A stretch of DNA of 64,000 nucleotides from a bacterium OM1 bin76 (GTDB lineage Bacteria > Actinomycetota > Acidimicrobiia > Spongiisociales > ZC4RG35), in the NCBI GenBank assembly GCA_002238785.1, contig MPNA01000009.1, positions 8,189 to 72,188 on the forward strand. Direction: 5' to 3'. Positions 22,271 through 64,000 of this stretch are shown piece by piece (position 1 is the first letter of the stretch; every line of letters starts with the position of its first letter). The notes below the pieces were generated by a model that had not been told where the DNA came from, searched no databases, and worked only from the letters and a program-made list of their open reading frames with translations. Both the position numbers and the translations under genes were made by a program.

Positions 22271-25264
22271 ATGCGGTTTGTGGTCTTCGACTTGGAAGCG
22301 AACGCCGACCACCCACGCGCCGAGGATCAGGAGGTCATCGAGATCGGCGCCCTCATGGTGGAGGACGGAGCGGTGGTGGACGAATTCACCAGTCTGGTGG
22401 CGCCCACCCCGGGTCGTCCTTTGGCGCCCCTGACGGTTGAATTGACGGGTCTGACCGTCGAATCACTGGAGGGCGCACCCTCCCGGAGGCCCGCCTTGCA
22501 GGGGTTCGCGGAATTCTGTGGTGGCTTGCCTCTGGTGGCCCACAATGGCAGCACCTACGACTTCCCGTTGCTCGACGCCGAATTGGAACGAGCGGGGCTG
22601 CCCGTTCCGTGGGGTGAACGACTGGACACCCTGGAGTTGGCCCATGTGGTGTTCCCCCGGGCAGGGAGGGAGTCCACCTCCGACATGTGGGGCAAGACTC
22701 CACCCCGGTCTCGTCGCCTGACCGATCTGGCCGATCACTACCGAGGCGGTGAGACCGCGGAGCCTGCCCACCGAGCCCTATCCGATGCGCGGAGGGCATG
22801 GGAGGTGATGGAAGGCCTGCTCGAAGACTTGAACCGAGACCAGGCTGCCCGCAGGGCCCAACGGTGGGTTCTGGAGGTCACGGGACATCCTTGGGCGTCG
22901 TTCTGCCGGCCCGATGTGAGCAACCTGGTGGGTTCATACCGGCCTGATCTGGTGGAGATAATCCCATTGCCCGTCCCCGACGGCACGGACGACTCTGAGG
23001 CTGACCCGTGGGACGAGGTGGATTGGGCTGAGGAGACCCAGAGGGAGCAGATCGATCTGGATGAGTTGGTTGACCCGCTCGGTTCGGAGGGGGAGTTGAT
23101 CACCGATGGGATGGAGCACCGGCCCTCGCAGGAGGAGATGGCTCGGCAGGTGGCCGCGGCTCTCGCCGAATCCGGGCGCCTGATGGTGGAGGCGCCGACG
23201 GGAACCGGCAAGACCCTCGCCTATCTGGTCCCAGCCTGCCGGTTGGCCGGCGCCTGGGACTCCCAGGTACTGGTTTCCACCTACACCAAGGCCCTCCAAG
23301 ACCAGGTCTGCAGGACGCTGTCGGACATCTCCGACCGCTTGGGGCCGGTTGAGTGGACTGTGCTGAAGGGCCTGAGCAATTACTTGTCGGTGAACGCCCT
23401 GGCTGAGGAGTTGAACCTGGTCAATCCTCTCGAAGCGGGTCGATTGCGAGATAATCCTCTCTTCGGGGACCGCAGCGATGAGCCGTCCTACGATCATCAT
23501 CTGGGTTTGGCATTGGCCATGGTGCTGGGCTGGGCGGCGGAGACTCCCACCGGAGAGTGGGATGATCTTCGCTACGGGTGGCTTGGGAGATACAACCCCC
23601 AGATGTACCGGCTGAGGTCCCGACTCTCCATGACCGAGACCCCAGGTCGGGCTCGAAGCGACCTGGAGAGGCGGTGCTTCTTCGTCCGTGCCCTGCGGCG
23701 GGTGGCCGAAGCCCAGATCGTGGTGGCCAATCACTCCCTGATGCTGCTTCGGGACCAGATGACGGATCACAGTCCTCATCTGGTAGTCGACGAGGCGCAC
23801 GAGTTGGAAGCGGCGGCACGGTCCGCGTTCACCGGTACGGTCAGCGAACGCGGACTTTGGCGCTTGCTCCATTCGGTGTACAGCTCCAAGACCTCTGGAA
23901 GTCTGCTCCACCGGTATCTGCGTTCCCTGCCGGCCGGCCGAGCCCGGGACCGGGGTCAGGCGGGGGCCGAGCAGGTAATCCGGTCCTGGCGACGCTGCCG
24001 GCCGCACATTGACGAGGTGCGCGCCATCCTGGTGGATTACTTCGAAAGCACTCGCAATTGGTCGGTCAACTGGGATGGGGCGCCGTTTTCTTCGAGAATC
24101 ACCCGGGTCGACCTCAACCGCTTGAGTTGGGGAACAGTCACCCAGGCGCTTCAAGGGCTGGCCGAGGCCGTTTCCCACCTGGGCGGCACTATCGAATCCC
24201 TTCCGGTGCCGGACCGGCTGTCGGGCGATCGGCCTGCCAAGGAGCTCAAGCGTCGTATCACCCAGGCCAGCGGCGACGCCAAGACGATCGCGGAGCTTTC
24301 CTTCCAGTTGGCCAACATCGATCCGGACAAACTGCTGGAAGCGGCTTTCGTCTGCGACCTGGAGTTGCGGGAAGGGGAGTGGAACTGGGGGCTCAGCGCG
24401 GTCCCCTTGGATGTGAATACCCGGTTGGAGGCAATCTGGGAGGAGAAGGAATCGGTGGTGATGACGTCCGCCACGCTCACTGTCTCCGGGTCATTTGACT
24501 ACATCGCCACCGGATTGGGATTCGAGGGCGGTCGAAGGGTGCTGCTGGACAGTCCCTTCTCCGATCTTCCCAGACAGATGCTGGTGGTAATCCCCGGGTA
24601 CCTTCCCAGTCCCAGCGGTTCCAGCCTGGAAGAGTTCGCCCGGTTGGCGCCCGAGGAGATGGCCCGCCTGTTCGAAGTCAGCCGGGGGCGGGCGCTGGTG
24701 CTGTTCACTGCCAACCGGAGGATGGAACAGGCTGCGGCGTACCTCAAGGACCGGCTCTATGGGGAGTACGCCGTGCTCTGCCAGGGAGAGGGGTCGGCGC
24801 CGGAGTTGACCGAGAGTTTCCGCAATCCCTCCCAACCCACCTGCCTGCTGGGGAGCGGCACTTTCTGGCAGGGCATCGACGTGCCCGGCGAGGCGTTGAG
24901 TCTGCTGGTGATGGAGAAACTCCCGTTCAACTCACCGCAGGATCCGGTGGTGGCTGCCCGCCAAGAGGTGATTGCCCGCCGCGGCGGAAACCCTTTCGAC
25001 GACTACCTCCTGCCTGAGGCGGTCCTGGGGTTCCGCCAGGGGGCGGGACGGCTGATCCGCTCCCCCAACGACAAAGGGGTGTTGATAGTTCTGGACAAGC
25101 GGTTGGGGTTCGCCCGCTACGCCTCATCCTTTCTGGACAGTCTCACCGGGTCGCCCCCGGTGTTGAAGGCGGCCAGCCCTGTCCAGTGCTATCGCGCCAT
25201 CGCCCGGCACCTGGGTACCGAATCGGAAGCGATCAGATCGGGCGCCGCCGCCGCGAGGAGATGA
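22271..25264 (+). CDS. dinG: ATP-dependent helicase DinG with an N-terminal DnaQ-like 3'-5' exonuclease domain
   Basis: DEDDh exonuclease motifs (VVFDLEAN..., HRALSDA), then SF2 DinG/Rad3-family helicase motifs (APTGTGKT, DEAHEL, Fe-S-less Gram-positive DinG-type layout). Confidence 0.85.
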   Translation: MRFVVFDLEANADHPRAEDQEVIEIGALMVEDGAVVDEFTSLVAPTPGRPLAPLTVELTGLTVESLEGAPSRRPALQGFAEFCGGLPLVAHNGSTYDFPLLDAELERAGLPVPWGERLDTLELAHVVFPRAGRESTSDMWGKTPPRSRRLTDLADHYRGGETAEPAHRALSDARRAWEVMEGLLEDLNRDQAARRAQRWVLEVTGHPWASFCRPDVSNLVGSYRPDLVEIIPLPVPDGTDDSEADPWDEVDWAEETQREQIDLDELVDPLGSEGELITDGMEHRPSQEEMARQVAAALAESGRLMVEAPTGTGKTLAYLVPACRLAGAWDSQVLVSTYTKALQDQVCRTLSDISDRLGPVEWTVLKGLSNYLSVNALAEELNLVNPLEAGRLRDNPLFGDRSDEPSYDHHLGLALAMVLGWAAETPTGEWDDLRYGWLGRYNPQMYRLRSRLSMTETPGRARSDLERRCFFVRALRRVAEAQIVVANHSLMLLRDQMTDHSPHLVVDEAHELEAAARSAFTGTVSERGLWRLLHSVYSSKTSGSLLHRYLRSLPAGRARDRGQAGAEQVIRSWRRCRPHIDEVRAILVDYFESTRNWSVNWDGAPFSSRITRVDLNRLSWGTVTQALQGLAEAVSHLGGTIESLPVPDRLSGDRPAKELKRRITQASGDAKTIAELSFQLANIDPDKLLEAAFVCDLELREGEWNWGLSAVPLDVNTRLEAIWEEKESVVMTSATLTVSGSFDYIATGLGFEGGRRVLLDSPFSDLPRQMLVVIPGYLPSPSGSSLEEFARLAPEEMARLFEVSRGRALVLFTANRRMEQAAAYLKDRLYGEYAVLCQGEGSAPELTESFRNPSQPTCLLGSGTFWQGIDVPGEALSLLVMEKLPFNSPQDPVVAARQEVIARRGGNPFDDYLLPEAVLGFRQGAGRLIRSPNDKGVLIVLDKRLGFARYASSFLDSLTGSPPVLKAASPVQCYRAIARHLGTESEAIRSGAAAARR

Positions 25265-27374: not shown

Positions 27375-28505
27375 GTGACTGCCGGAAGAGAACTGCACCT
27401 TCCTGATCTTGCGATCGAGGGTTTCCGCGGTATCGACGAACTCGCGATTCCCCGCCTGGGACGCGTAAACCTGATCACCGGACCGAACGCCGTGGGCAAG
27501 ACCACGGTCTTGGACGCGGTGCGCATTTACGCTTCCCGAAGCGACGATCGGGTGCTGTCCGACCTCCTGACTGTGCGGGAGGAACTATCTGCCGGCACAG
27601 ACGAAGAGGGTGTTCCATGGCGCGAGCCGGATTGGTCCGCCCTCTTCCATGGTCGACAGATTTCAGCAGGTACCCCCATAACGGTTCGATCCGGTGGCGA
27701 CCAACTCATTGTCCAAGAGCACTACGCCAACCGTGAAGAGGCATCACACATCAGTCAACTCTATTTCGAATTCGGTGTGAGTGACCACATTAGGGTGCTG
27801 ACAGTCACATTCCGAGGTCAACAGTGGACGTTGCCATGCTTGATTGAACCCGATGTGGATTTCGCTGGTCGGCGGGACTGGAGAAGACGGCGCAGATTCG
27901 GGTCGGATGACTCACTTCCATCGAAACTCACCTGCGAGTCGCTGGGTCCTGGCGCTTTGACTAATACACAGTTGGCTCGGTTCTGGGACGAAGTTGCATT
28001 GACTGACCACGAAGATCGGGCTACCCGCGCCTTGAGCTTGGTGCTGGGAGATACTGTGGACCGTGTCACTATGGTCGGCGATAATGGCCCGAATCGCAGG
28101 GGCGGTGGACGCCGGGTTGTGGTAAAACTGCGAGGTTTCCGAGGGCGGGTCCCACTCAAGAGTCTCGGTGATGGCGCCTTGCGCATGTTTGGCGTTGCAT
28201 TGGCATTATCCAACAGCAGGAACGGGCTCTTGCTCGTGGACGAGGCAGAGAACGGAATCCATCACTCCGTCCAACCAGACTATTGGCACATGGTCTTCCG
28301 CACTGCTTTTGAGAACAACGTTCAGGTTCTGGCGACTACGCATAGCTGGGACTGCGTCACGGGTTTTGCCAAGGCTGCGGCAGCGAACGAGGATGTTGAA
28401 GGTGTCCTTGTCCGTCTCGATAAGGTCGGCGAGAGTATCCAGGTCGTCCATTACCCGGAGGAAGAGGTTAGGGTCGCCGCCGAGCAGGGCATTGAGGTCA
28501 GGTAG
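27375..28505 (+). CDS. ABC-type AAA ATPase (AAA_21/AAA_15-like; OLD-family/PARIS AriA/AbiLi-like ATPase component)
   Basis: Walker A GPNAVGKTT, ABC signature-like SLGDGALRMF, Walker B LLLVDEAENGIHH, H-loop ATTHS. Lower GC3 than its neighbours. Confidence 0.8.
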   Translation: MTAGRELHLPDLAIEGFRGIDELAIPRLGRVNLITGPNAVGKTTVLDAVRIYASRSDDRVLSDLLTVREELSAGTDEEGVPWREPDWSALFHGRQISAGTPITVRSGGDQLIVQEHYANREEASHISQLYFEFGVSDHIRVLTVTFRGQQWTLPCLIEPDVDFAGRRDWRRRRRFGSDDSLPSKLTCESLGPGALTNTQLARFWDEVALTDHEDRATRALSLVLGDTVDRVTMVGDNGPNRRGGGRRVVVKLRGFRGRVPLKSLGDGALRMFGVALALSNSRNGLLLVDEAENGIHHSVQPDYWHMVFRTAFENNVQVLATTHSWDCVTGFAKAAAANEDVEGVLVRLDKVGESIQVVHYPEEEVRVAAEQGIEVR

Positions 28506-28507
28506 AT

Positions 28508-29146
28508 TTGCCCACTCCTGGTGCGTCGGGGCAAGTTTTGCTGGTCGAGGGCCAAGACGATAAGCACGTCGTCAAGCATCTTTGCCGCGCCACAGGATCA
28601 ATGCCGGATTTCAACATCGAGGTTAAGGGTGGTCTGTACAACCTTCTCAGCGCCATTCCAGTGGAGGTCAAAGCTCCCGGTCGGAAGACTGTTGGAATCA
28701 TGGTTGATGCCAATGATGATCAACAGGCCCGATGGCAAGCGCTAGCGGACCGGTTAGGGAAGGTGGATGTCGCGCTTCCAGGCGATCTCGCTCCCAGTTG
28801 GACAATCATTGAGGGAAGCCACGAAGTCAATCGTCCCCGCATCGGGGTGTGGCTCATGCCTGACAACGTGTCGCCTGGCGAGTTGGAGGACTTCATTGCA
28901 GGCATGATTCCACAGGACGATCCTGTGTGGCCATTGTCTTGTGAATATATTGACGGTATCCCCGAGCCTCGCAAATTCAGCGAGAAAAAGGTCCGGAGGG
29001 CTGAAGTTCACGCCTGGCTGGCCACCCGCAGGGAACCGCGGCGGATGGGGGAGGCGATAAGGACACAAGACTTGGATGTGGGGGAGGACACCTGCAGGAG
29101 GCTTGTGGAATGGCTCCGTCAACTCTTCACGGATCCAGGTTCGTGA
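28508..29146 (+). CDS. Small TOPRIM-like protein (DUF4276/DUF4435-like partner of the ATPase; split OLD-family nuclease component)
   Basis: N-terminal VLLVEGQDDKHVV (TOPRIM catalytic Glu) and IMVDANDD (DxD metal site). TTG start 2 nt after the ATPase stop. 212 aa. Confidence 0.6.
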   Translation: MPTPGASGQVLLVEGQDDKHVVKHLCRATGSMPDFNIEVKGGLYNLLSAIPVEVKAPGRKTVGIMVDANDDQQARWQALADRLGKVDVALPGDLAPSWTIIEGSHEVNRPRIGVWLMPDNVSPGELEDFIAGMIPQDDPVWPLSCEYIDGIPEPRKFSEKKVRRAEVHAWLATRREPRRMGEAIRTQDLDVGEDTCRRLVEWLRQLFTDPGS

Positions 29147-51383: not shown

Positions 51384-52562
51384 TCAGATTTGACTGGAGA
51401 GGGGTGAAGCGAGGTCACCCTTTGCAGACACGGTTATCTTGTTTGCGCCGAGCCACTCAGCCATCTCGGAGAGTTCTGCGGCCAGGTTTCGGCACACCCT
51501 GTCCGCATCGATACCGGCCTCGCCGTAACAGCCCAGGACCCGCAGTCGCCGGCCTTTGCGGTCCAACTTGAGGTCCACGCGGGCCACCATCGTGTCTCCG
51601 AGCAGGAAGGGCAGCACGTAGTAGCCGTAAACCCGCTTGGGGCGGGGGACATAGATCTCAATCCGGTAGCGGAAGTCGAACAGTCTCTCCAACCGGGGCC
51701 GGTACCAGACCAGAGGATCGAAAGGGGAGAGGAGCGCCCGTCCCACCACCCGGCGGGGAATGACGGCATCCGGATCCAGGTACGCCGGCTCCGACCAACC
51801 CTCAACTTCCACCTGCAGGATCTCACCGGAAGTGACCAGGTCGGTGAGTGCCGCGCGGGCCGGCCGAATCCGCAAGCGGTAGTAATCGGCCAGAGCGGCT
51901 GCGGTTCCCACCCCCGATTGCGCGATTGCCAGCCGCAGGAGTTGGCGGAGGGCTTCCGGCTCCTCAATCGGCGGTTCGGCCATGGCCGCGCCGGAATGAA
52001 CTCGTTCGGGAAGGTCGTACCATCGGATGAAACGGCGCCGGTCGGAGACGGTTACCGCGCCTGTCCAGAACAGCCACTCCAAGGCCCGTTTACCCATCGA
52101 GTGTCCCCACCAGGACCCTCCGGAGGTGCCCGGTTCGCTCAACTCCGAGGCGCGCAGGGGCCCTTTCTCCGCTACTTCCCGGTGCACCTGCTGCACATAG
52201 CCGGGGTTGTCGTAGTTGACAGACTCGACCCATCTGTGCGGTGTCTGGCGCATGCGGTGGACGAAGAGCGGGCGATGGCTGATCGATATCAGGGACCGTT
52301 CGTGTCCCCAGTACTCGAAAAGTTCCTGAGATGTCCACAGCCATCGGTCGAGGCGGTGGCGGGGATAGGCTCCCAGCCTCGAATAGAACGGGAGGTAGTG
52401 GGCCCTGGCCAGCACATTCACCGAATCCAGTTGGATGAGACCGGTGCTTCGCAGGACCCTTCGATAGTGGCGAACATCCAGCTTTCCGGACGGTCGGGCT
52501 CCTGCCAACCCGGTTGCGGAGATGGCAAGCCGCCGGGCTTGGGAGGTCGAGAGTCGTGTCAT
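51384..52562 (-). CDS. Winged-helix DNA-binding domain protein of the AlkZ/YcaQ family (putative interstrand-crosslink DNA glycosylase)
   Basis: Characteristic YcaQ-family N-terminal region (RLAISATGL ... IQLDSVNVLARAHYLPFYSRLG) and QxQ-region architecture. Confidence 0.65.
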   Translation of the reverse strand: MTRLSTSQARRLAISATGLAGARPSGKLDVRHYRRVLRSTGLIQLDSVNVLARAHYLPFYSRLGAYPRHRLDRWLWTSQELFEYWGHERSLISISHRPLFVHRMRQTPHRWVESVNYDNPGYVQQVHREVAEKGPLRASELSEPGTSGGSWWGHSMGKRALEWLFWTGAVTVSDRRRFIRWYDLPERVHSGAAMAEPPIEEPEALRQLLRLAIAQSGVGTAAALADYYRLRIRPARAALTDLVTSGEILQVEVEGWSEPAYLDPDAVIPRRVVGRALLSPFDPLVWYRPRLERLFDFRYRIEIYVPRPKRVYGYYVLPFLLGDTMVARVDLKLDRKGRRLRVLGCYGEAGIDADRVCRNLAAELSEMAEWLGANKITVSAKGDLASPLSSQI

Positions 52563-54167: not shown

Positions 54168-54372
54168 GAATTCATGGAGGTTTGATCCCATACCTGACCC
54201 CGTTACCGACCCGACCGGTGTCCCTTGCCACTGACCCAAGTCAGCGCCCATGAGCCTGTTGACTTGGTTGAGGTGTTACGAAAGGGCTGTGGATTCTGAC
54301 ATGACCATGCGGAGCGCTTATACCGACCCATTAAATCCGGGTCAAGGAATCAAGACAGAATAGCCTTGCGAC

Positions 54373-55611
54373 ATGACCTCCTCCTTGACTTGGCTTGACT
54401 ACTCGGAGAAAGACCGGCGTCGTGCCATTGAAGTCATCGACCTGTTTCGGGAGACCGGTACCCTCGACGAGCTTGGGGTGGCCTCCGTTCGCAACAGCTT
54501 TTCGGACCTGTTCTTCCCCGGGACCAGCACGGTCCAGACTCGGGCGTGCTATCTCCTGCTCGTACCGTGGACATTCCTGCGGCTCGAACGGTTGAAGTTC
54601 TCATCAAGCAAGGTCGAGGCGAGGGCTCGGCAGGCAGAACTAAGACTCAACCGGAGGATGCTGGCAGGGGACGACAGTCGGGGCGTGTTCGGGTCCCAAG
54701 CGGGGGATGCTCTGAAACGGCTCCCGAGCGAGGTCTATTGGGGTGGGCTCCGAAGTTGGGGTATCTTTACGTTCTCAGGTCATAAGTGGGCATACTTCCG
54801 ATCGCTTGACGGTTTCTACCGAAGTCGCGGCCGGTTTCAGAGCATGTCGCCAGATGCGGAGGGCAGGAGCGCTCCCCCAGCGAACTGGCACCCCCACCTC
54901 CCTGTCCCTCCGTCCGGATTCCCCTATAAGAACGTCTCGGTGACACTCCGCCGCCAGGATGCCGAGTATCTCAGGGAACGGATCCAGGCCCGGCATCCCG
55001 AGAGTCTTTTGGCTGTGCTCGCAGGCCGGGCTAAACCGGAGGACCTCCAGGTGAACCGACCGTGGCACCTTTACCACTTGAGGGAGATGACGCCAGCCCT
55101 TGTAGTGCAGTTGCGCGACGCCGAGTTATTCGCGGTCTGCATGCAAGGGGCGGCCCTCCTCTACAACCTCATGCTCTCCGAACTGCAGCAGCATGAGCAG
55201 CGCATCGAGACCTACCGCAGCGAACTAGAGAATTGGGCCGCCGCCGCTAATGGGTTGGCGACGGCTATTGAGGATTGGCGATTGGATGGGGTGTGGCGGG
55301 TAGTTCGAGCACAGGGCAGGTCTCCGGCTTTTCCGATGCAGTCCTTTGTGGAGCGCTGGGTTCGAAACCTCAGGCGGGGTGGGCCTGAGGCTATCGTCCC
55401 GACCAACTCCGCGGCGCGGGGTCTCGTGCGGGAGCGTGAGGCGCAACTCAAGCGGGGTCGTGCGCGGTTATCAAGTTCTCGGCATCTCGAACTGTGGGGC
55501 GGACGGTCCGGCACGGGACGGATGACCTACCGGTGGCGCGTAGCCAAGGGGCTTCTCAAGGACATCTTCGATGGGCTGGCGCGGAGCGAGGGCGATGCTG
55601 GGAACCCGTGA
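54373..55611 (+). CDS. Hypothetical protein, first gene of a putative three-gene helicase/PLD defense-like operon
   Basis: 412-aa ORF, ATG start, no recognisable motif. Lower GC3 than the flanks. Its 3' end overlaps the next gene. Confidence 0.55.
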   Translation: MTSSLTWLDYSEKDRRRAIEVIDLFRETGTLDELGVASVRNSFSDLFFPGTSTVQTRACYLLLVPWTFLRLERLKFSSSKVEARARQAELRLNRRMLAGDDSRGVFGSQAGDALKRLPSEVYWGGLRSWGIFTFSGHKWAYFRSLDGFYRSRGRFQSMSPDAEGRSAPPANWHPHLPVPPSGFPYKNVSVTLRRQDAEYLRERIQARHPESLLAVLAGRAKPEDLQVNRPWHLYHLREMTPALVVQLRDAELFAVCMQGAALLYNLMLSELQQHEQRIETYRSELENWAAAANGLATAIEDWRLDGVWRVVRAQGRSPAFPMQSFVERWVRNLRRGGPEAIVPTNSAARGLVREREAQLKRGRARLSSSRHLELWGGRSGTGRMTYRWRVAKGLLKDIFDGLARSEGDAGNP

Positions 55612-57502
55612 GCGGACCCTCCTTCTTGATAGCCTGCGCCCCCCACCCGGCTATCGGCTGCGGCGCGCGGTAGGGACTAGCTTCACGCTGGACCTAATGG
55701 CACTTCTGACAGCGCCACTTGCCTTTACATTCTTCGATGCCCACGACCAAGATGGCGCGCCCGTGGCCGACCCTGTGGCTTTGCTCGAGGCGCTCCGGCG
55801 GCATGCCGAGAAGATCACGCTCTTTTGTCAGGCTGGTGCGATCGGTGTGCCGGGGCCGGACCAGCCACTCTTGGCTTACCTGGAGGGCTCGGTCATTGAA
55901 GTTCAACCGCGCCAGGAGGGAGGGATCTTCCATCCGAAGCTTTGGGTGCTCAACTTTCAGGCTGAGGAGCGGCCAGCTATCTACCGTGTATTGTGCCTAT
56001 CCCGCAACCTGACTTTCGCCCGGACATGGGATACTTGCCTTCGCCTACAGGGGCGACTTGTAACACGCCAGCGCGGATTCGGGAGGAACAAGCCGTTCGC
56101 GGATCTGCTTTTGGCGCTCCCAAAGCTGGCAACACGATCGGTTACGGCAGAGTCTCGGGAGGACCTCAAGCGAATGGCCTACGAGATTCGGAGGGTGAAA
56201 TTCCAGACGCCCGGATCCTTCCAGGATTTCCGTGTCCACAATTTCGGCCTGGGGCGTAGGCGTGGATGGCCTTTTCCAAAAGGTGGGCGGGGCCTTGTGG
56301 TTTCGCCTTTTATCAGCGGCTCCACTGTTCGAAATCTCGTTCATGATCACGGACTCGATGTTCTTATTTCCCGTCCGGAGGCATTCGAGGATGTAGCCCG
56401 TGGGACGGGACGAGAGGTTCTGCCTACGGAGTGCTACGTCCTCTCCTCCGCTGCGGATCTCAACTCCCGAGACGGGGAGGAAGAAAAACCACAAGACGGA
56501 TCGCCACCTCTTGAAAACGAGGTCGAACTATCGGGCCTCCACGCTAAGTTGTTCCTGTTCGAGAACGGCCGGGAGTCTCATCTGTTCGCAGGTTCGGCGA
56601 ACGCTACTGACGCCGCCTTTCGCTCCAACATGGAGGTGCTGGTTGAACTGGTTGGAAGGACGAAGGATTGCGGCATCGCTTCGTTCCTCGGTCCGGAAGA
56701 CGACCCGAGGCTCGAAACCATCCGATCGCTACTACAAAGCTATCGCCTACCAGATTGTTTGGGACCGGAGCCACCCGAGAGCAAATCGAAAGAGAGGGTC
56801 GACCGGTTGGCGCGGATCCTCGCGGCTGTACCGCTCACCGCGAAAGTCTGCGAGATAGATGAGGGGCACCGGTGGGATATGAGATTGTCTGGAGTCTTTA
56901 CGGGGTTCCCCGCCGGAGTAGAGGTCAAGGTGTGGCCCGCGACACTCTCTGCGGAGGCGGCCCAGCGGATTGCGGATCCGGCCGGGCAGCGAGACGAGAC
57001 AGATGGTTGGACCAACGATCCGATGGACCCGGTGGCCATCTTCAAAGGGCTCTCCTTCGAGGCGCTGACCACCTTCTTCGCCTTCGAGGTTTCGCTGCGG
57101 GAAGAATCGCACAAAGTTCGACGTCGCTTCGTAGCCACCGCTGAGTTGATAGGGGCACCTGAAAACCGGAGGGAGCGCTTGCTGCGATCACTCTTGAAAG
57201 ATCGCCGTCGCGTGATCCAGCTCTTATTCCTCATCCTCATGGGTGAAGGCGCTGACGTGTCAGTGTTTGTGCGGGCCGCTAAGGATGGTGAAGACGCTTT
57301 CCGGGGATCCTTCGGAGGTTGGGACCGGGAGGCCCTGCTTGAGGCTCTTCTCCGGTGCCTGAGTCACAAGCCGACGCGAATCGACGAGGCCGCTGCGTTG
57401 ATTGCCGACTTGACAAGGACGCCGGAAGGAGAGGACCTTCTCCCTGAGGGTCTGAACGAGATATGGGAACCAGTTTGGGCGGCCCGTCAGGAACTGGAGT
57501 GA
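55595..57502 (+). CDS. Phospholipase-D-family (dual HKD) nuclease-like protein
   Basis: Two HKD-type motifs: FHPKLWVLNF and LHAKLFLFENGRESHLFAGSANATDAAF (HxK...GSxN). A good ggagcgaggg RBS before the ATG at 55595, with an alternative ATG at 55571. Confidence 0.7.
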   Translation: MLGTRERTLLLDSLRPPPGYRLRRAVGTSFTLDLMALLTAPLAFTFFDAHDQDGAPVADPVALLEALRRHAEKITLFCQAGAIGVPGPDQPLLAYLEGSVIEVQPRQEGGIFHPKLWVLNFQAEERPAIYRVLCLSRNLTFARTWDTCLRLQGRLVTRQRGFGRNKPFADLLLALPKLATRSVTAESREDLKRMAYEIRRVKFQTPGSFQDFRVHNFGLGRRRGWPFPKGGRGLVVSPFISGSTVRNLVHDHGLDVLISRPEAFEDVARGTGREVLPTECYVLSSAADLNSRDGEEEKPQDGSPPLENEVELSGLHAKLFLFENGRESHLFAGSANATDAAFRSNMEVLVELVGRTKDCGIASFLGPEDDPRLETIRSLLQSYRLPDCLGPEPPESKSKERVDRLARILAAVPLTAKVCEIDEGHRWDMRLSGVFTGFPAGVEVKVWPATLSAEAAQRIADPAGQRDETDGWTNDPMDPVAIFKGLSFEALTTFFAFEVSLREESHKVRRRFVATAELIGAPENRRERLLRSLLKDRRRVIQLLFLILMGEGADVSVFVRAAKDGEDAFRGSFGGWDREALLEALLRCLSHKPTRIDEAAALIADLTRTPEGEDLLPEGLNEIWEPVWAARQELE

Positions 57503-60500
57503 TCACCCCAAGAGTGGGCGAGCGCCCCGACACCAATGCCGTGCTCAACGGTTTGAAGGGGTTCCAGCGAGACACTGTCGAGTACGCATTCGAGCGGCTC
57601 TACCAGGCGCCGGACTCTACGCGCCGCTTCCTGGTTGCCGACGAGGTGGGTCTGGGGAAGACGCTCGTGGCTCGGGGGGTAATCGCCAAAGCTCTCGATC
57701 ACCTTTGGGACGGACCCAGAAGGGTTGAGCAGATCGACATCGTTTACATTTGCTCCAACGCGCAGATTGCCAGACAAAACGTTCGTCGGCTTCAGATCGG
57801 TCGCGGCAAGTTTGTCCGGGCCGCCCGGTTGGGGCTGTTGCCGCAGGAGATCCATGGGTTAAGGGAGAACAGAGTCAACTACCTCGCGCTAACACCCGGA
57901 ACCTCCTTCAACCTGAGGAGCAGTATGGGTACGAAGGAAGAGCGGGTCCTCCTGTATCACCTCTTGCAACGCGTATGGCCGGACTCACGCAAGGGTCCTA
58001 TGAACCTTCTTCAAGGGACGGTGAAGAGGACAGATAACTTCCGCTGGCATCTGAAAGAGTTCAGGCGTTGGAAGAGCGTCGACAACGATCTCGCGAGAGT
58101 CTTCGAGCGGCGACTCATTGAGGAGGGAGAGGGTCTCCGAGGACAGTACGAGGATCTCTGCAAACGATTCTGGCGCAGCCGAAAGCGGGTCCCGTGGCAT
58201 GACCGGCGAAGGCAGATATCCTTCATCGGCCGGCTTCGCACGATGTTGGCCGAGGTCTGTGTCACAGCACTTGAGCCCGACCTCGTGATCCTGGACGAAT
58301 TTCAGCGTTTCAAGCAGTTGCTCGACGGAGGGGATACCACGGCGCTCTTGGCGAAACGGCTCTTCACCTATTCGGACGAGACGACCGACGTTCGTCTCCT
58401 GCTCCTCTCGGCGACCCCCTACAAAATGTACACGTTGCATCACGAAAGCGCCGAGGACGACCATTACGCGGATTTCCTGCGGACCGTAGAATTCCTTGAC
58501 CCGGATCTCAAGAAGAGTGGCACCCTCCGTGGCCTCCTGGATGACTACCGGCAGGCCATGTATCGGATCAAGTCAGGTACAGAGGAACTGCAGCGGATCA
58601 AGGAAGAGATCGAAACCCAGCTCCGCCGCATCATGTCGCGTACAGAGCGGCTTCGAGTCTCCGGGGACGCCCAAGGCATGTTGCGCGAAGTTCCGAATTC
58701 GGGGCTGCAACTCACCCCGGACGATGTAAGGGACTTCTTGGCTCTTCAAGAGATCGGCTACGCAGTGGGACAGCCACGGGTCCTCGAATACTGGAAATCG
58801 GCACCATACCTTCTGAGTTTCATGGACAACTACAAGTTGAAGTCGGAGGTTCTAGCGAGGCTTGACAAGCCAGTGGATGGCGGACTGACCAACCTCTTGT
58901 CCGAAAGCGGACGGGTGTTCCTTTCGTGGGAGGACGTTGAAGCGTACGCTCGACTGGACCCTGCCAACGCTCGTCTGCGGAGCTTGCTCATTTGGCTGGA
59001 GCGCGGCGAGGGATGGAAGCTGCTCTGGCTACCTGCCTCGCTTCCCTATTACCGGGAGTCCGGCGCCTGGAAGGCGGCCCGCGAGCAGCAACTCTCCAAG
59101 CGTTTGATCTTCTCAACCTGGGGCGTGGTTCCCAAAGCCATAGCGAGCATGGTGAGCTACGATGTAGAACGTCGGATCTTCCGGCGCTTCGACAATTCGG
59201 TCCTAAACAGTCCGGAGGAGCGAAAGAAGCGCCGCCCCCTGCTTCGCTTCGCCTATGCGAACGAGCGCCTCACCGGAATGCCGGTCCTAGGCATCCTGTA
59301 CCCCAGTCCCAGCCTCGTCTCACTGGGTGATCCTGTCCCTGTGCCGCAGGACGGGGCTACGTTGGAAGACGCCATTGCCCGTGCCCGGGCGCGGCTCGAA
59401 CCGCCTCTCGGCAGGATTACGGCGCCGTACCTCGACAAACTACGCCAGGACGAGAGTTGGTACTGGGCGGCGCCGATCCTGCTTGATCTCGAGAGACACG
59501 GCGAGTCGACCAGGGAGTGGTTCGCCCGCAGGGATCTTGCACACCGGTGGAGCGGCGCGAAGAAGGAGGACGACGATGAGGGTTCCCGGTGGGTGGAACA
59601 TGTCAGAGAAGCAAGAAGGTTCGTAGACACGGCTTATAGCGGACAGACGGAACTCGGTCGACCGCCCGCGGACCTCTTGGATGTGCTAGCGACGCGATCC
59701 GTGGCTGGCCCTGCGACGACCGCGCTCAGGGCCCTCATACGTGCCTCGGGACCGGAAGCGTCGGTAACCTGCGCGGCCCGGGACGCGGCCGCCTGGATCG
59801 CCTGGAGCTTCCGGGCACTATTCAACCTCCCGGAAGCGACTGCGCTCATCCGAGGAGAGCGGCCCGGGGACGAGACACCCTACTGGCGGCAGGTGGTGGA
59901 TTACTGTGCGGCAGGCAACCTCCAGGCTGTGCTGGACGAGTGGGTTCACACGCTACGGGATCTCGAAGGACTCTTCGCAGCTACGGAAGGGGAAGCCTGG
60001 GAAAGGCTGGCCTTGGTAATGTCAGGAGCGATCTCGCTTCGCACGGGCGCTCCCCGTGTGGACGAAATCCAATCTGGCGATGGTTCCGCGCGGATTGAGA
60101 GCCGCCGTCTACGCAACCACTTTGCCATGCGCTTCGGTGCACAGGAGGGAGACGATGGCAAGGCGGGGGCTCGAGAAGGACAGGTGCGTCAGGCATTCAA
60201 CTCACCCTTCTGGCCTTTTATTCTCGCTTCCACTTCGGTTGGCCAAGAGGGTCTGGATTTCCATGCCTACTGCCATTCCGTCATGCATTGGAACCTGCCA
60301 TCGAATCCGGTCGATCTCGAGCAACGTGAAGGCCGTGTTGATCGCTACAAGGGTCATGCAGTGCGAAAGAACATCGCCGCCAAGTACGGGGGCGACATCC
60401 TCTGCGGCAAGTCGGAGGACGTGTGGTCGGCCCTTTTCGAAGCGGCGCGGGAGCAATCATCCAGCGGACGCGGTCTCGTTCCGTACTGGCTCTTCCCACT

Positions 60501-60732
60501 TTCCGATGGCGCACATATAGAGCGGCATGTCCCGGCCCTGCCCTTGAGCCGAGACGCTTCTCAACTCAAGGCGCTCCAGCGGTCCCTTGCTGTCTACCGA
60601 ATGGTCTTCGGGCAGCCGAGGCAGGACGATCTGACCACGTTTCTGCTTGAGCAGTGCGACCCTGGGACCTTGAGGGACATAGAACCCTTGTTGCGCATCG
60701 ATCTGTGGCCCCGGCCATTGGAACACATGTAG
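57499..60732 (+). CDS. SNF2/RapA-like SF2 helicase with a split ATPase core (about 600-aa insertion between lobes)
   Basis: Motif I LVADEVGLGKT, motif II LILDEFQRF, motif III LLLSATPY near the N-terminus. Motifs V/VI (FILASTSVGQEGLDF, QREGRVDRYKG) near the C-terminus. A GTG at 57499 overlaps the upstream TGA (GTGA) with ggag 5 nt upstream. Alternative ATG at 57463. Confidence 0.7.
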   Translation: MITPRVGERPDTNAVLNGLKGFQRDTVEYAFERLYQAPDSTRRFLVADEVGLGKTLVARGVIAKALDHLWDGPRRVEQIDIVYICSNAQIARQNVRRLQIGRGKFVRAARLGLLPQEIHGLRENRVNYLALTPGTSFNLRSSMGTKEERVLLYHLLQRVWPDSRKGPMNLLQGTVKRTDNFRWHLKEFRRWKSVDNDLARVFERRLIEEGEGLRGQYEDLCKRFWRSRKRVPWHDRRRQISFIGRLRTMLAEVCVTALEPDLVILDEFQRFKQLLDGGDTTALLAKRLFTYSDETTDVRLLLLSATPYKMYTLHHESAEDDHYADFLRTVEFLDPDLKKSGTLRGLLDDYRQAMYRIKSGTEELQRIKEEIETQLRRIMSRTERLRVSGDAQGMLREVPNSGLQLTPDDVRDFLALQEIGYAVGQPRVLEYWKSAPYLLSFMDNYKLKSEVLARLDKPVDGGLTNLLSESGRVFLSWEDVEAYARLDPANARLRSLLIWLERGEGWKLLWLPASLPYYRESGAWKAAREQQLSKRLIFSTWGVVPKAIASMVSYDVERRIFRRFDNSVLNSPEERKKRRPLLRFAYANERLTGMPVLGILYPSPSLVSLGDPVPVPQDGATLEDAIARARARLEPPLGRITAPYLDKLRQDESWYWAAPILLDLERHGESTREWFARRDLAHRWSGAKKEDDDEGSRWVEHVREARRFVDTAYSGQTELGRPPADLLDVLATRSVAGPATTALRALIRASGPEASVTCAARDAAAWIAWSFRALFNLPEATALIRGERPGDETPYWRQVVDYCAAGNLQAVLDEWVHTLRDLEGLFAATEGEAWERLALVMSGAISLRTGAPRVDEIQSGDGSARIESRRLRNHFAMRFGAQEGDDGKAGAREGQVRQAFNSPFWPFILASTSVGQEGLDFHAYCHSVMHWNLPSNPVDLEQREGRVDRYKGHAVRKNIAAKYGGDILCGKSEDVWSALFEAAREQSSSGRGLVPYWLFPLSDGAHIERHVPALPLSRDASQLKALQRSLAVYRMVFGQPRQDDLTTFLLEQCDPGTLRDIEPLLRIDLWPRPLEHM

Positions 60733-60843: not shown

Positions 60844-60877
60844 GTTGGGTTGGTCGGCTAGCGCCAACCAACCCAAC
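60844..60877. terminator. Bidirectional terminator hairpin (15-bp stem with 1 mismatch, loop tagc) followed by a T-rich run
   Basis: gttgggttggtcggc-tagc-gccaaccaacccaac. Lies between the convergent helicase (+) and SBP (-) genes. Confidence 0.55.
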
Positions 60878-60890
60878 TTAGTTTGAGTAT

Positions 60891-61823
60891 TTAGCCTCGG
60901 GCGGTTGCGAGCCAACTGTCGACTTTGTCGCGGTTGGCCGCTATCCACGCCGCGGCGTCAGCCTTGATGTCGTCCTCGGTGTAGTCCCCGGAGGCCATCT
61001 TGGAGTTTTGAGCCGCGATGTCGCTTAGGGGGATTGCCACCACCTCGAGGAGACGGTGTATGTCGGGATTGTCATCCAGGAAGTCGGTGTTGGCCACCGC
61101 TCGGATGTCGTTCACGGTGGACTGCAGCCATACGGCGTTGTCGCCCGCCACCAGGACGGTGTTCGTCCAGTTGGGCGTCCATGCGTAGAACAGTGCCGAT
61201 TCACCGGCCGCTACTCTCTCCACCACTCCTTGGGCCAACTCGTTGTAGACACCGGAGATCTGTTCGACTCCTGAGCCCCAACTCTCGTCGGCGATCTGGT
61301 CGTTGATGGCGGTTTCGCATCCCCATCCGACGTTGCAGCCGAACAGGTCAGCTTTGCCGTCACCGTCGTGGTCGAAGGCGCCAGCGTTGGCTGCCACCCC
61401 GTCCATGGAGGTGATTCCCAGGCCGTCGGCCGTGGCCTTGTCGATCATCAGGCCGTCGGTGGCCCCATCATCCACCTGCCAGCCGACAGGTTCGATGGGG
61501 AGATCAACCGCTTGGCCGGTGACGTTCTCTCCTTCCAGGTAGATGTCGTGGAGGGGGAACCAGCCGTTTGCCCACAGGTCGTACTGGCGGGCGGCCAGAG
61601 CCGGATAGAACGAATAGGGGCTGAGGGTGGCTGCGGCAGGGTCGGTGACCTCGTGCCCCAACTCCTCGATCAGCGCCGCGTATATGGCGGCCTGCATGTA
61701 GCCAGAGTCCCAGTTGGCCCGAGCGATCTTCACCGGCCCGGCAACCTCTTCGGTGGCGCAAGCCGAAAGCATCAGCACGAAAGCCGCAGCAGCGGCGACC
61801 AATACGTTCAATCTAGTTTTCAC
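60891..61823 (-). CDS. Glycine betaine/choline-type ABC substrate-binding lipoprotein (OpuAC/ProX family)
   Basis: Lipoprotein signal (VLMLSACATE), OpuAC-like motifs (ARANWDSGYMQAAIY). GTG start with a strong ggaagaggagg RBS. Confidence 0.7.
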   Translation of the reverse strand: MKTRLNVLVAAAAAFVLMLSACATEEVAGPVKIARANWDSGYMQAAIYAALIEELGHEVTDPAAATLSPYSFYPALAARQYDLWANGWFPLHDIYLEGENVTGQAVDLPIEPVGWQVDDGATDGLMIDKATADGLGITSMDGVAANAGAFDHDGDGKADLFGCNVGWGCETAINDQIADESWGSGVEQISGVYNELAQGVVERVAAGESALFYAWTPNWTNTVLVAGDNAVWLQSTVNDIRAVANTDFLDDNPDIHRLLEVVAIPLSDIAAQNSKMASGDYTEDDIKADAAAWIAANRDKVDSWLATARG

Positions 61824-63586
61824 TTTCCACCTCCTCTTCCCAGTTTCTCGATCAGACCGGCATGCTGGGATTGGAAGATGGCTTCGTCGTAGTGGGCCTC
61901 CAGGAGGTCGAGTTCCTCATCGAAGGCCTTCTTGAGGCTGTACAACATGATCAGGAGCACGAACAGGAACGGCAGTCCGGTGGCAACTGCGGCCGTTTGG
62001 AGCGCCGACAGGCCACCTCCCAACAGCAGCACGCACGCTACCAGGCCTTCCATCAACGCCCAGAACACCCGCTGGGGCTTGGGCGAGTCGAGTTTTCCTC
62101 CTGAGGTGAGGTGGTCCACCACCAAGGATCCTGAGTCCGACGAGGTTACGAAGAACGAAACCAACAGCAGAATGCCGACTATTGAGACGAAGAAGGTCCA
62201 TGGGAAGGCCTCCAACATCACGAACAGAGCGGTGGCAACGTTTTCGTTGACCGCGGTGGCAACGTCCAGTTCGCCACGCATCTGCAGGTCCATGGCGGCT
62301 CCGCCGAACACTGCGAACCACAGGAAGCAGAGGAGGCAGGGGAGGACGATCACACCGATGATCATTTCCCGCACCGAGCGTCCCTTGGAGATCCGGGCGA
62401 TAAACATGCCCACGAAGGGAGACCAGGATATCCACCATCCCCAATAGAAGATGGTCCACCACTGTTGCCATTGGGTCTCGATCAAAGCGGCGTTCCAGAA
62501 CGAGAACTCCGGCAAGATCTGGATGTACACGCCGATGCTTTCGACGTACAGCGAGAGCACCAACAACGTGGGTCCCACCGCTAGCACAAAGACCAAGAAG
62601 GCCGCGGCCAGCCACACGTTGAGTTGGCTAAGCCGCTTGACGCCGGCGTCGAGTCCTGCCACAACCGAGATGGTTGCCAGCCCGGTGATGAAAGCGATAA
62701 GGACAATCTGAAACCCGGTGCCCGACGGGAGACCGAAGAGTTTGTTCAACCCCGCGGCCGCCTGACCGGCGCCGAATCCCAGCGAGGTGGCAAGACCGAA
62801 GAGGGTAGCCACAACGGTGAGGATGTCGATCGCGTTGCCCCACGCACCGTAGATCCTCGGACCCAAAATCGGGTAGAAGACCGAGCGGAACGTCAGCGGA
62901 AGGCCTCTGTTATAGGCAAAGAACCCTAACGCCAGGGCCACCAGTCCGTATAGCGCCCATCCATGAATCCCCCAATGAAGGTAGGAAGTCGCCAGAGCGC
63001 CTCGGGCCGCGCCCGCTGTCAAGGGTTCTACCTCGAACAAGGGAGGCGGGGCGGTCAGGTGGAAGATTGGCTCTGCCACACCCCAGAACATCAGCCCGAT
63101 ACCGAGACCGGCGGATATCAACATCGCATACCAGGCACCCGTGGAAAACTCCGGAAGGGCCCCTGGGCCGCCTAGTCGAATCTTGCCGTACCTTCCTAAC
63201 GCAAAGTAGAGCGCCGCGCCGATAAAGACGTTGAAGGAGATGATGTACAGCCAGCCCACCTTCTCATTAATGAAGTTGAGAATGGTGCCGAAGACATCGC
63301 TGGCCGACTCCGGAAAGAACAGAGTCCAAACGATGAACAGCAACAGGAAACCGGCGGCGACGAACGTCACCTGTGGATGGATGTCGAATCCCCACTTGAC
63401 AATGTTCTTGTCACCGGGTTCACGGTCGGCCACTTCGGGATAAAAGTCGATCTCAGGATCGATTTGGAGACCTTCGAACTGGGGACGATTACGGATCGCC
63501 TCCTCACGAGCTCGTTCCTCGTGCTCTTCCCAGTCCTCGTAGGCCTCAGAAATCCGAGTGAGATCGAGTTCTTCTTTCTCAGCCAT
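61820..63586 (-). CDS. BCCT-family betaine/carnitine/choline transporter
   Basis: BCCT signature region (WGWWISWSPFVGMFIARISKGRSVREMI), 12 TM helices. aaaggag RBS before the ATG at 63586. Confidence 0.85.
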   Translation of the reverse strand: MAEKEELDLTRISEAYEDWEEHEERAREEAIRNRPQFEGLQIDPEIDFYPEVADREPGDKNIVKWGFDIHPQVTFVAAGFLLLFIVWTLFFPESASDVFGTILNFINEKVGWLYIISFNVFIGAALYFALGRYGKIRLGGPGALPEFSTGAWYAMLISAGLGIGLMFWGVAEPIFHLTAPPPLFEVEPLTAGAARGALATSYLHWGIHGWALYGLVALALGFFAYNRGLPLTFRSVFYPILGPRIYGAWGNAIDILTVVATLFGLATSLGFGAGQAAAGLNKLFGLPSGTGFQIVLIAFITGLATISVVAGLDAGVKRLSQLNVWLAAAFLVFVLAVGPTLLVLSLYVESIGVYIQILPEFSFWNAALIETQWQQWWTIFYWGWWISWSPFVGMFIARISKGRSVREMIIGVIVLPCLLCFLWFAVFGGAAMDLQMRGELDVATAVNENVATALFVMLEAFPWTFFVSIVGILLLVSFFVTSSDSGSLVVDHLTSGGKLDSPKPQRVFWALMEGLVACVLLLGGGLSALQTAAVATGLPFLFVLLIMLYSLKKAFDEELDLLEAHYDEAIFQSQHAGLIEKLGRGGGK

Positions 63587-63817
63587 ACGAACTCCTTTCT
63601 GTACGCAGATCAACCATGTGCATCTCCTTTCGCTTACCTACACTCGTCTCCCGCACCTAGGCGCGGCTCTGTGTAAAGACCCTAGCGCAAGAATGGGGGG
63701 GTGCCGCAAAAACCGTGGAATTATCTCGCCCGGGACACACAGCAGTCACACTTTTCTGCCGGGTCGCTACACTGTTGCCACAGCCACTACCCTGTGGCTC
63801 AACCCACCGGATACCTT

Positions 63818-64000
63818 CCATGCGCAGAACCGCCATCGCTGTCTTGGGAATCCTGGCAGTGCTATTGCTCTCCCCAATAGGTGCTGGGATAGCCGTGGGC
63901 CAGTCTGACGAGGAGGCAGCCGAGAACCCGCCGGTCCGGATGGCCCGCGCAACCTGGGACACCGGTTGGTTCCAAGCCGAGGTCTACAGGTTGCTCGTCC
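63818..64000 (+). CDS. Glycine betaine-type substrate-binding protein, N-terminal part (continues past the window end)
   Basis: Signal peptide MRRTAIAVLGILAVLLLSP, then ARATWDTGWFQAEVY, paralogous to the N-terminus of the SBP at 60891-61823. Confidence 0.6.

What the first reader, a model, noticed from the sequence alone, without database searches (positions are those of the whole stretch)
54373..60732. Three-gene operon (unknown 412-aa protein, dual-HKD PLD nuclease, split SNF2/RapA-like helicase): candidate undescribed anti-phage defense system
Three co-directional ORFs are translationally coupled. Gene 1 and gene 2 overlap (gene 1 stops at 55611, gene 2 starts at 55595 or 55571). Gene 2 and gene 3 overlap as GTGA at 57499-57502. 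The middle protein carries two phospholipase-D HKD motifs (HPKLWVL... and HAKLFLFENG...GSANAT), the hallmark of PLD-family nucleases. The 1089-aa third protein has SNF2/RapA-type motifs I-III (LVADEVGLGKT, DEFQ, LLLSATPY) at residues about 50-330, but motifs V/VI (STSVGQEGLDF, QREGRVDRYKG) only at about 960-1000. That is an ATPase core split by a roughly 600-aa insertion. The first protein has no recognisable domain. By eye the codons are richer in A/T at third positions than in the flanking purB and transporter genes. The operon sits between housekeeping purB and betaine transporter genes, behind a 205-bp lower-GC intergenic spacer, and ends at a bidirectional hairpin. Helicase plus PLD pairings recur in known defense systems (for example DISARM DrmA/DrmC, and Mokosh). 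This trio lacks the DISARM DUF1998 and methyltransferase partners and the Mokosh SF1 RNA-helicase type, so I could not place it in a described system.
Basis: partly seen in the sequence, partly recalled or inferred. Interest (0 to 1): 0.85.

Follow-up and report, generated by a model that had tools for sequence, protein, structure and literature searches.

The report
Azaca anti-phage operon (zacABC)
The three-gene operon is real, but it is an ordinary copy of Azaca, an anti-phage defence system described in 2022, acquired horizontally by an uncultured marine Acidimicrobiia bacterium.

Summary
The three overlapping, co-directional genes are present as described. They are not an undescribed system. 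All three proteins match the PADLOC models of the Azaca system end to end: ZacA 1.3e-119, ZacB 5.1e-163, ZacC E=0 at 1129 bits. Gene 1 was said to have no recognisable domain, but it is Pfam DUF6361 (3.2e-58), the Azaca marker. A 2025 preprint shows that Bacillus ZacABC forms a complex, protects more than 10^6-fold against T4, and cleaves T4 DNA only when all three subunits, the PLD site and the ZacC Walker A motif are intact. The same DUF6361–PLD–helicase trio, in the same order, occurs in other phyla, on a Cronobacter plasmid and on a haloarchaeal plasmid, each time with different neighbours. None of 80 purB loci from other species carries it. It is therefore mobile island content, as expected for a defence system. 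The new results are minor. A confident ZacA model (pLDDT 91.5) has no relative among solved structures. This clade is 65-83% identical across several phyla. Verdict: already known, low interest.

The parts
54168..54372 (.). 205-bp intergenic spacer between purB and zacA, the presumed promoter region of the operon
   Evidence: GC is 0.537 against 0.621 for the window. No sigma-70-type consensus was found. The scan does not cover actinobacterial promoter types, so the promoter is inferred and not shown.
54373..55611 (+). zacA: 412-aa DUF6361 protein, the third subunit of Azaca, all alpha-helical
   Evidence: PADLOC ZacA 1.3e-119, residues 1-403 on profile positions 1-395 of 396. Pfam DUF6361 3.2e-58. 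AF2 model with pLDDT 91.5 and pTM 0.89. No relative among solved structures.
55595..57502 (+). zacB: 635-aa PLD-family nuclease with two HKD-type motifs (H113/K115, H316/K318) and an unassigned C-terminal part of about 270 aa. An alternative upstream start at 55571 is unlikely.
   Evidence: PADLOC ZacB 5.1e-163 on profile positions 1-583 of 586. Weak Pfam PLDc_2 match at the second motif. Motifs located. The N-terminus MLGTRERTLLL and both motifs are invariant in homologues. The gene overlaps zacA by 17 nt.
57499..60732 (+). zacC: 1077-aa SF2 (SNF2/RapA-like) ATPase-helicase, or 1089 aa if it starts at ATG 57463. About 600 aa without any Pfam match lie between motif III and motif V.
   Evidence: PADLOC ZacC E=0, 1128.8 bits, profile positions 5-1016 of 1019. 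Pfam DEAD and Helicase_C. GLGKT 63, DEFQ 278, SATPY 316, STSVGQEGLDF 923 and QREGRVDRY 954 in 1089-aa numbering. GTGA overlap with the zacB stop. The insertion has no Pfam match but is conserved in homologues.
60844..60877 (.). Inverted repeat (hairpin) between the convergent zacC and opuAC genes, a likely shared transcription stop
   Evidence: 15-nt arms, 93% complementary, 4-nt loop. Present in both the MFE and centroid folds. The consensus terminator scan did not call it, so its function is inferred.

Best explanation
The locus is a complete, apparently intact Azaca anti-phage defence operon (zacA-zacB-zacC). It was acquired horizontally by an uncultured Acidimicrobiia bacterium and sits between purB and a glycine-betaine transporter gene pair.

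Likely mechanism, by homology to the characterised Bacillus system:
- The three proteins assemble into one ZacABC complex.
- ZacC, an SF2 ATPase, binds DNA and uses ATP to engage or translocate on it.
- ZacB cuts the DNA. Its two HKD half-sites in one chain should form a single PLD active centre that works through a covalent phosphohistidine intermediate.
- ZacA is an all-alpha subunit that is needed for cleavage. I infer that it acts as a scaffold or specificity adaptor.

Shown here: family membership, intact catalytic motifs, operon structure, conserved synteny and mobility.
Shown elsewhere for a homologue: defence, the need for all three subunits, and the need for the PLD site and the Walker A motif.
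Inferred: that this copy is expressed and active, what it recognises, and the role of ZacA.
For: - Full-length PADLOC matches to ZacA, ZacB and ZacC, with no competing model for ZacA or ZacB. The next-best ZacC hit scores 78 bits against 1129.
- Gene 1 is DUF6361.
- HKD, Walker A and DExQ motifs are intact, and there are no internal stops.
- The genes overlap, which is consistent with co-expression.
- Literature: Azaca is helicase + PLD + DUF6361. BmAzaca gives more than 10^6-fold protection against T4. Only ZacABC together cleaves T4 DNA. PLD-site and ZacC Walker A mutants are dead. Azaca is enriched in Actinobacteria.
- The same trio in the same order occurs in Ca. Palauibacter, where it sits beside Mrr, NA-iREase, SLFN_AlbA_2/HATPase_c_4 and type I HsdR genes. 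It also occurs in Bryobacterales and in another Acidimicrobiia.
- The trio is on a Cronobacter IncFIB plasmid next to a tyrosine recombinase, and on a Halomarina plasmid. All three proteins align over full length.
- ZacA homologues are found on 48 plasmids.
- Zac proteins are 65-78% identical across phyla, whereas purB is at most 61% identical to any of 185,579 species genomes. None of 80 purB loci has zacABC nearby.
Against: - There is no experimental evidence for this copy: no data on expression, complex formation or targets.
- The compositional signal of foreign origin is weak (GC3 z-scores -0.55, -1.81, -0.71).
- No integrase, tRNA or flanking direct repeats mark an island boundary.
- The known T4 (glucosyl-hydroxymethylcytosine DNA) preference of BmAzaca may not carry over to a marine actinobacterium.
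- In BmAzaca, mutating conserved ZacA residues had no effect on cleavage, so the role of ZacA remains open.
Confidence: 0.93

Rival explanations
1. It is a previously undescribed helicase-PLD defence system, distinct from all catalogued ones.
For: ZacB and the ZacC insertion have no Pfam or NCBIfam family above threshold. None of the three proteins has a relative of solved structure. From sequence alone the system therefore looks unplaceable.
Against: All three proteins match the PADLOC Azaca models over their full length, with E-values from 1e-119 to 0. DUF6361 is the published Azaca marker. Public annotation of identical trios already reads DUF6361 / phospholipase D family / helicase.
Confidence: 0.02
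2. It is a variant of DISARM (DrmA/DrmD helicase plus DrmC PLD), or of Mokosh, that has lost its partner genes.
For: ZacC gives secondary hits to DrmD, DrmA, DpdE and BrxH models and to NCBIfam DISARM_DrmD and DpdE. ZacB gives a faint DrmC hit.
Against: These hits cover only about 45-80 residues around helicase motifs V-VI. Scores are 53 bits for PADLOC DrmD against 1129 for ZacC. The NCBIfam DrmD hit is 62.9 bits against a cut-off of 610, and DrmC is 18 against 133. No DUF1998 gene or methyltransferase lies within 10 kb. No Mko model hit at E<=0.01.
Confidence: 0.02
3. It is a housekeeping DNA-repair or transcription (RapA-like) operon linked to purine metabolism, and not a defence system.
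For: It lies between purA/AlkZ-like/purB and osmolyte transporter genes, with no mobile-element genes nearby. RapA is the closest solved sequence match to ZacC.
Against: The RapA match is E=0.0035 over 46 residues, and NCBIfam RapA scores 32.7 bits against a cut-off of 576. The purA-AlkZ-purB backbone is kept in related Acidimicrobiia without zacABC. The trio moves as a unit among unrelated contexts, phyla and plasmids.
Confidence: 0.02
4. It is an Azaca operon that is silent or decaying in this genome, a remnant without current function.
For: No promoter consensus was found. A Bryobacterales homologue has a split zacB, so decay does happen in this clade.
Against: All three ORFs are intact with invariant catalytic motifs. 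The identical protein is found on about 20 contigs from several samples, which suggests a stably maintained gene.
Confidence: 0.08

Closest known systems
Azaca (ZacA/ZacB/ZacC), first described by Millman et al. 2022; the Bacillus system BmAzaca was characterised in bioRxiv 10.1101/2025.07.10.664194
   Same: Same three components in the same order: DUF6361 protein, PLD nuclease with HKD motifs, SF2 helicase with Walker A/B. All three give full-length HMM matches. The genes are adjacent, co-directional and overlapping.
   Different: The host is an uncultured marine Acidimicrobiia, not Bacillus or Enterobacteria. This copy belongs to a clade shared at 65-83% identity among several phyla. It is only 35-47% identical to the plasmid-borne trios compared here. 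Its target specificity is untested.
DISARM (DrmA/DrmB/DrmC plus DrmD or DrmE and a methyltransferase)
   Same: It pairs an SF2/SNF2-like helicase with a PLD-family nuclease in a defence operon. There is local similarity in helicase motifs V-VI.
   Different: There is no DUF1998 (DrmB) and no methyltransferase. Scores fall far below the family cut-offs. DUF6361 is not a DISARM component.
Mokosh (MkoA/MkoB or MkoC)
   Same: It is another nuclease-NTPase system that uses a PLD-like nuclease.
   Different: The Mokosh helicase is SF1 (RNA-helicase type), whereas ZacC is SF2. No Mko model was hit.
Hachiman (HamA nuclease / HamB helicase)
   Same: The logic is the same: the nuclease is active only in complex with an SF2 helicase.
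   Different: The nuclease fold is different (DUF1837/Cap4-like, not PLD), and Hachiman has two components. In BmAzaca the Walker A motif is required for cleavage, whereas in Hachiman the NTPase motifs are not.
RapA (bacterial SNF2-type RNA polymerase recycling ATPase)
   Same: It is the closest solved sequence relative of the ZacC C-terminal RecA lobe.
   Different: The match covers only 46 residues at E=0.0035. NCBIfam RapA scores 32.7 bits against a cut-off of 576. The domain layout and genomic context are different.

Membership tests
Azaca | ZacA component (DUF6361 protein) | tested here: met
   PADLOC ZacA 1.3e-119, profile positions 1-395 of 396. Pfam DUF6361 198 bits against a cut-off of 25.
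Azaca | ZacB component: PLD-family nuclease with HKD catalytic motifs | tested here: met
   PADLOC ZacB 5.1e-163, profile positions 1-583 of 586. HxK motifs at residues 113 and 316, each followed by an SxN element, and invariant in homologues.
Azaca | ZacC component: SF2 helicase/NTPase with Walker A and Walker B | tested here: met
   PADLOC ZacC E=0, 1128.8 bits, profile positions 5-1016 of 1019. GLGKT at 63, DEFQ at 278, motifs V/VI at 923-968.
Azaca | All three genes adjacent and co-directional in one operon | tested here: met
   Order A-B-C, with 17-nt and 4-nt (or 40-nt) overlaps. The same order is seen in L087, L088, L090, L093 and L094.
Azaca | Protects cells against phage infection | not testable with these tools
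   Shown only for homologues (more than 10^6-fold against T4). It needs cloning and phage challenge.
Azaca | ZacABC complex with ATPase-dependent DNA cleavage that needs all three subunits | not testable with these tools
   Shown for BmAzaca. Here only the catalytic motifs could be checked, and they are intact.
DISARM | DrmA/DrmD helicase at family score | tested here: not met
   NCBIfam DISARM_DrmD 62.9 bits against a cut-off of 610. PADLOC DrmD/DrmA hits cover only residues of about 907-986.
DISARM | DrmB (DUF1998) and a DNA methyltransferase in the locus | tested here: not met
   Genes within 10 kb on either side are purA, AlkZ-like, purB, OpuAC, BCCT, a two-component system and a hydrolase. 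There is no DUF1998 or methyltransferase.
DISARM | DrmC PLD protein at family score | tested here: not met
   NCBIfam DISARM_DrmC_I 18 bits against a cut-off of 133.
Mokosh | MkoA/MkoB/MkoC models; SF1 RNA-helicase type | tested here: not met
   No Mko model among PADLOC hits at E<=0.01 for any of the three proteins. ZacC is classed as SF2.
RapA / housekeeping SNF2 | Full-length RapA equivalog score | tested here: not met
   NCBIfam PRK04914 (RapA) 32.7 bits against a cut-off of 576. The PDB RapA match covers 46 residues.

The most novel reading that the evidence does not exclude
This copy belongs to an Azaca clade that has spread recently among unrelated phyla (Acidimicrobiia, Gemmatimonadota 'Ca. 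Palauibacter', Bryobacterales/Acidobacteriota, Gammaproteobacteria), which I infer share one habitat. The clade may recognise a different cue from the glucosyl-hydroxymethylcytosine DNA of T-even phages that BmAzaca prefers. ZacA, whose confidently predicted all-alpha fold has no relative among solved structures, may be the subunit that sets that specificity.
Probability: 0.25. Interest if true: 0.4.

Novelty: already known. Interest (0 to 1): 0.1.

Why it matters
It matters little as a discovery. The locus would be called Azaca by PADLOC, and presumably by DefenseFinder, without further work.

Its modest value is threefold:
- It documents Azaca in an uncultured Acidimicrobiia lineage. The MAG naming suggests a sponge or marine origin, which I infer and did not verify. 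This fits the reported enrichment of Azaca in Actinobacteria.
- It shows near-identical Azaca operons shared across phyla, an example of defence-gene exchange within a community.
- It gives a confident structural model of ZacA (DUF6361) with no solved relative. That flags ZacA as the least understood part of a system whose mechanism is only partly worked out.

Tried and rejected
- The first ZacA structure used a shallow alignment of 38 sequences at 66-83% identity. It gave pLDDT 60, with the N-terminal half unreliable, and its Foldseek search found nothing. It was replaced by a 142-sequence alignment with 34% mean identity, which gave pLDDT 91.5.
- The afdb50 library was not available.
- A profile search of ZacA against PDB sequences gave one chance hit at E=0.3.
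- Single-sequence PDB searches for ZacB and ZacC gave nothing useful except a 46-residue RapA match.
- The ZacC insertion and the ZacB C-terminal part gave no Pfam match even at E<=10.
- I looked for island boundaries. There is no tRNA in the window, no flanking direct repeats and no integrase within 10 kb.
- I looked for an 'empty site' in close relatives. The nearest purB in 185,579 species genomes is only 61% identical. I could show only that the purA-AlkZ-purB backbone exists without zacABC, not an exact empty site.
- The promoter and terminator consensus scan was uninformative.
- I did not predict ZacB or ZacC structures.


Full report
**Observation.** The window holds three co-directional + strand ORFs at 54373-55611 (412 aa), 55571-57502 (643 aa from the first ATG) and 57463-60732 (1089 aa from the first ATG).

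Gene 1 ends with TGA at 55609-55611. It overlaps an in-frame ATG of gene 2 at 55595 by 17 nt. Gene 2 ends with TGA at 57500-57502, inside a GTGA whose GTG (57499) is in frame with gene 3.

The gene 2 N-terminus MLGTRERTLLL, starting at 55595, is identical in two homologues. The real protein is therefore 635 aa. Most gene callers start gene 3 at 57499, giving 1077 aa, and one uses 57463.

The motifs are present:
- ZacB has HPK at residue 113 and HAK at residue 316, each with a downstream SxN element.
- ZacC has GLGKT at 63, DEFQ at 278, SATPY at 316, STSVGQEGLDF at 923 and QREGRVDRY at 954.

The upstream spacer is 205 bp with GC 0.537. A hairpin with 15-nt arms lies at 60844-60877.

The claimed third-position A/T enrichment is right in direction but weak. 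GC3 is 0.719, 0.649 and 0.708, against 0.750 ± 0.055 for 36 other genes of the window. Only zacB (z = -1.81) stands out.

**What it is.** A scan against PADLOC-DB gives one strong full-length match per protein:

| Protein | PADLOC model | E-value | Profile positions covered |
|---|---|---|---|
| Gene 1 | ZacA | 1.3e-119 | 1-395 of 396 |
| Gene 2 | ZacB | 5.1e-163 | 1-583 of 586 |
| Gene 3 | ZacC | 0 (1128.8 bits) | 5-1016 of 1019 |

The next-best hit for gene 3 scores 78 bits. All the DrmD, DrmA, DpdE and BrxH hits cover only 45-80 residues around helicase motifs V-VI.

Pfam assigns gene 1 to DUF6361 (3.2e-58). For the other two it finds only weak PLDc_2, DEAD and Helicase_C signals. NCBIfam gives sub-threshold hits only: DrmD 62.9 bits against 610, RapA 32.7 against 576, DrmC 18 against 133.

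The literature describes Azaca as 'helicase, PLD nuclease, and DUF6361' and lists it among PLD-containing systems from Millman et al. 2022. The locus is therefore an Azaca operon.

**Source and context.** The identical proteins are on record from an Acidimicrobiia MAG (GCA_026713945.1, contig JAPONN010000007.1) and from about 20 metagenome contigs.

The neighbours are purA, an AlkZ-like gene and purB upstream, and OpuAC and BCCT transporter genes downstream. No integrase, methyltransferase or DUF1998 gene lies within 10 kb. The window has no tRNA, and no direct repeats flank the operon.

The rest of the window is metabolic: methylamine and betaine catabolism, ABC transporters and acyl-CoA enzymes. 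The exception is a candidate defence pair about 25 kb upstream, described under 'Noticed in passing'.

**Synteny and mobility.** The A-B-C trio recurs with the same order and overlaps in several settings:

| Locus | Host | Context |
|---|---|---|
| L087 | Ca. Palauibacter genome | Between Mrr_cat/NA-iREase1, SLFN_AlbA_2/HATPase_c_4 and type I HsdR genes, a typical defence island |
| L088 | Bryobacterales MAG | Different flanks |
| L090 | Another Acidimicrobiia MAG | Near a methyltransferase-HNH gene |
| L093 | Cronobacter sakazakii IncFIB plasmid | Directly after a tyrosine recombinase |
| L094 | Halomarina (archaeal) plasmid | Beside HNH and conjugal-transfer genes |

All three proteins align over their full length to these trios. 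Identity is 65-78% to the MAG copies and 35-47% to the plasmid copies. The long region between ZacC motifs III and V is therefore a conserved family feature, not a peculiarity of this gene.

ZacA homologues occur on 48 plasmids, 16 of them predicted to be conjugative. The ZacA family has 3215 representatives at 50% clustering with E<=1e-3.

By contrast, the best purB match among 185,579 species genomes is 61% identical. None of the 80 purB loci retrieved has zacABC within 10 kb, including Acidimicrobiia loci that keep the purA-AlkZ-purB backbone.

The operon is therefore horizontally acquired, variable content. The housekeeping alternative is excluded.

**Mechanism.** For the Bacillus system BmAzaca, a 2025 preprint reports:
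- more than 10^6-fold protection against T4;
- preferential in vitro degradation of T4 dsDNA, with the glucosyl-hydroxymethylcytosine modification suggested as a cue;
- cleavage only when ZacA, ZacB and ZacC are all present;
- loss of cleavage on mutation of the PLD site or of the ZacC Walker A motif;
- no effect on complex formation or cleavage from mutating conserved ZacA residues.

From established knowledge of PLD-family nucleases, two HKD halves form one active centre that works through a phosphohistidine intermediate (summarised). ZacB carries both halves in one chain.

My model for this locus is therefore an ATP-dependent ZacABC nuclease complex. ZacC engages or translocates on DNA, ZacB cuts it, and ZacA is a required non-catalytic subunit. 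Activity, expression and target preference of this particular copy are inferred, not shown.

**Additional result on ZacA.** With a diverse 142-sequence alignment, AlphaFold2 gives a confident all-alpha model (pLDDT 91.5, pTM 0.89).

The ZacC insertion (571 aa) and the ZacB C-terminal 266 aa have no Pfam match.

**Comparison and verdict.** The locus meets every sequence-level defining feature of Azaca that could be tested. It fails those of DISARM, Mokosh and RapA.

It is a known system in a new host, and standard defence-annotation tools would find it. The interpretation 'undescribed system' is refuted, although 'anti-phage defence operon' is right. Interest is low.

**Noticed in passing.**
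- A PDC-M38 / AbiL-like ATPase + DUF3226 pair at 27375-29146 has the lowest GC3 in the window.
- An RNase T-DinG fusion lies at 22271-25264.
- This Azaca clade shows high identity across phyla.

Noticed in passing
window 27375-28505 (+) and 28508-29146 (+): A two-gene pair: a 376-aa AAA_15/AAA_21/AAA_23 ATPase and a 212-aa DUF3226 protein. They match the PADLOC candidate system PDC-M38 (PDC-M38A 1.5e-74, also AbiLi 9.6e-42; PDC-M38B 2.8e-38). They have the lowest GC3 in the window (0.62, z about -2.3). This is probably a second, less characterised defence module acquired horizontally.
   Followed up: partly
window 22271-25264 (+): A 997-aa fusion of an RNase_T (DEDDh exonuclease) domain with a DinG-type helicase (DEAD, Helicase_C_2). 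It matches PADLOC typeIV_DinG at 2.2e-107. No CRISPR or Cas genes are nearby, so it is more likely a housekeeping DinG.
   Followed up: partly
P0001-P0120; L087, L088, L090: ZacA homologues at 67-83% identity carry source names from Acidimicrobiia, Ca. Palauibacter (which I take to be Gemmatimonadota), Bryobacterales, Acidobacteria and Gammaproteobacteria MAGs. Housekeeping purB is at most 61% identical to anything in the species-genome set. This points to recent exchange of this Azaca clade among unrelated bacteria. That they share a habitat is my inference from the MAG naming.
   Followed up: partly
L088 11223-13126; L003 11925-13130: In the Bryobacterales MAG, zacB is called as two ORFs (546 + 96 aa), which suggests a frameshift or an assembly error. 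In the NCBI annotation of this window's own MAG, zacB is called from an internal start (401 aa, not 635 aa).
   Followed up: no
[not shown]
   Followed up: yes
window 1-21000 and 60891-64000: The window is dense in methylamine, glycine-betaine and osmolyte genes: MTTB methyltransferase, corrinoid protein and RACo activase, MTHFR, a DAO-FAO_M-GCV_T oxidase, BKACE, at least three OpuAC binding proteins and a BCCT transporter. This suggests a lifestyle centred on quaternary amines.
   Followed up: no
window 51384-52562 (-); L009, L010, L012-L014: An AlkZ-like (PF06224) gene sits between purA and purB. This arrangement is conserved in several related Acidimicrobiia/Actinomycetota MAGs at 48-51% identity.
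   Followed up: no
phage record MT835621.1, 13075-13845 (H13): One unannotated 'Bacteriophage sp.' contig from human faeces encodes a partial ZacA-like stretch (31.5% identity over 59% of the query, E=2e-26). It could be a phage-borne or mis-binned Azaca fragment.
   Followed up: no
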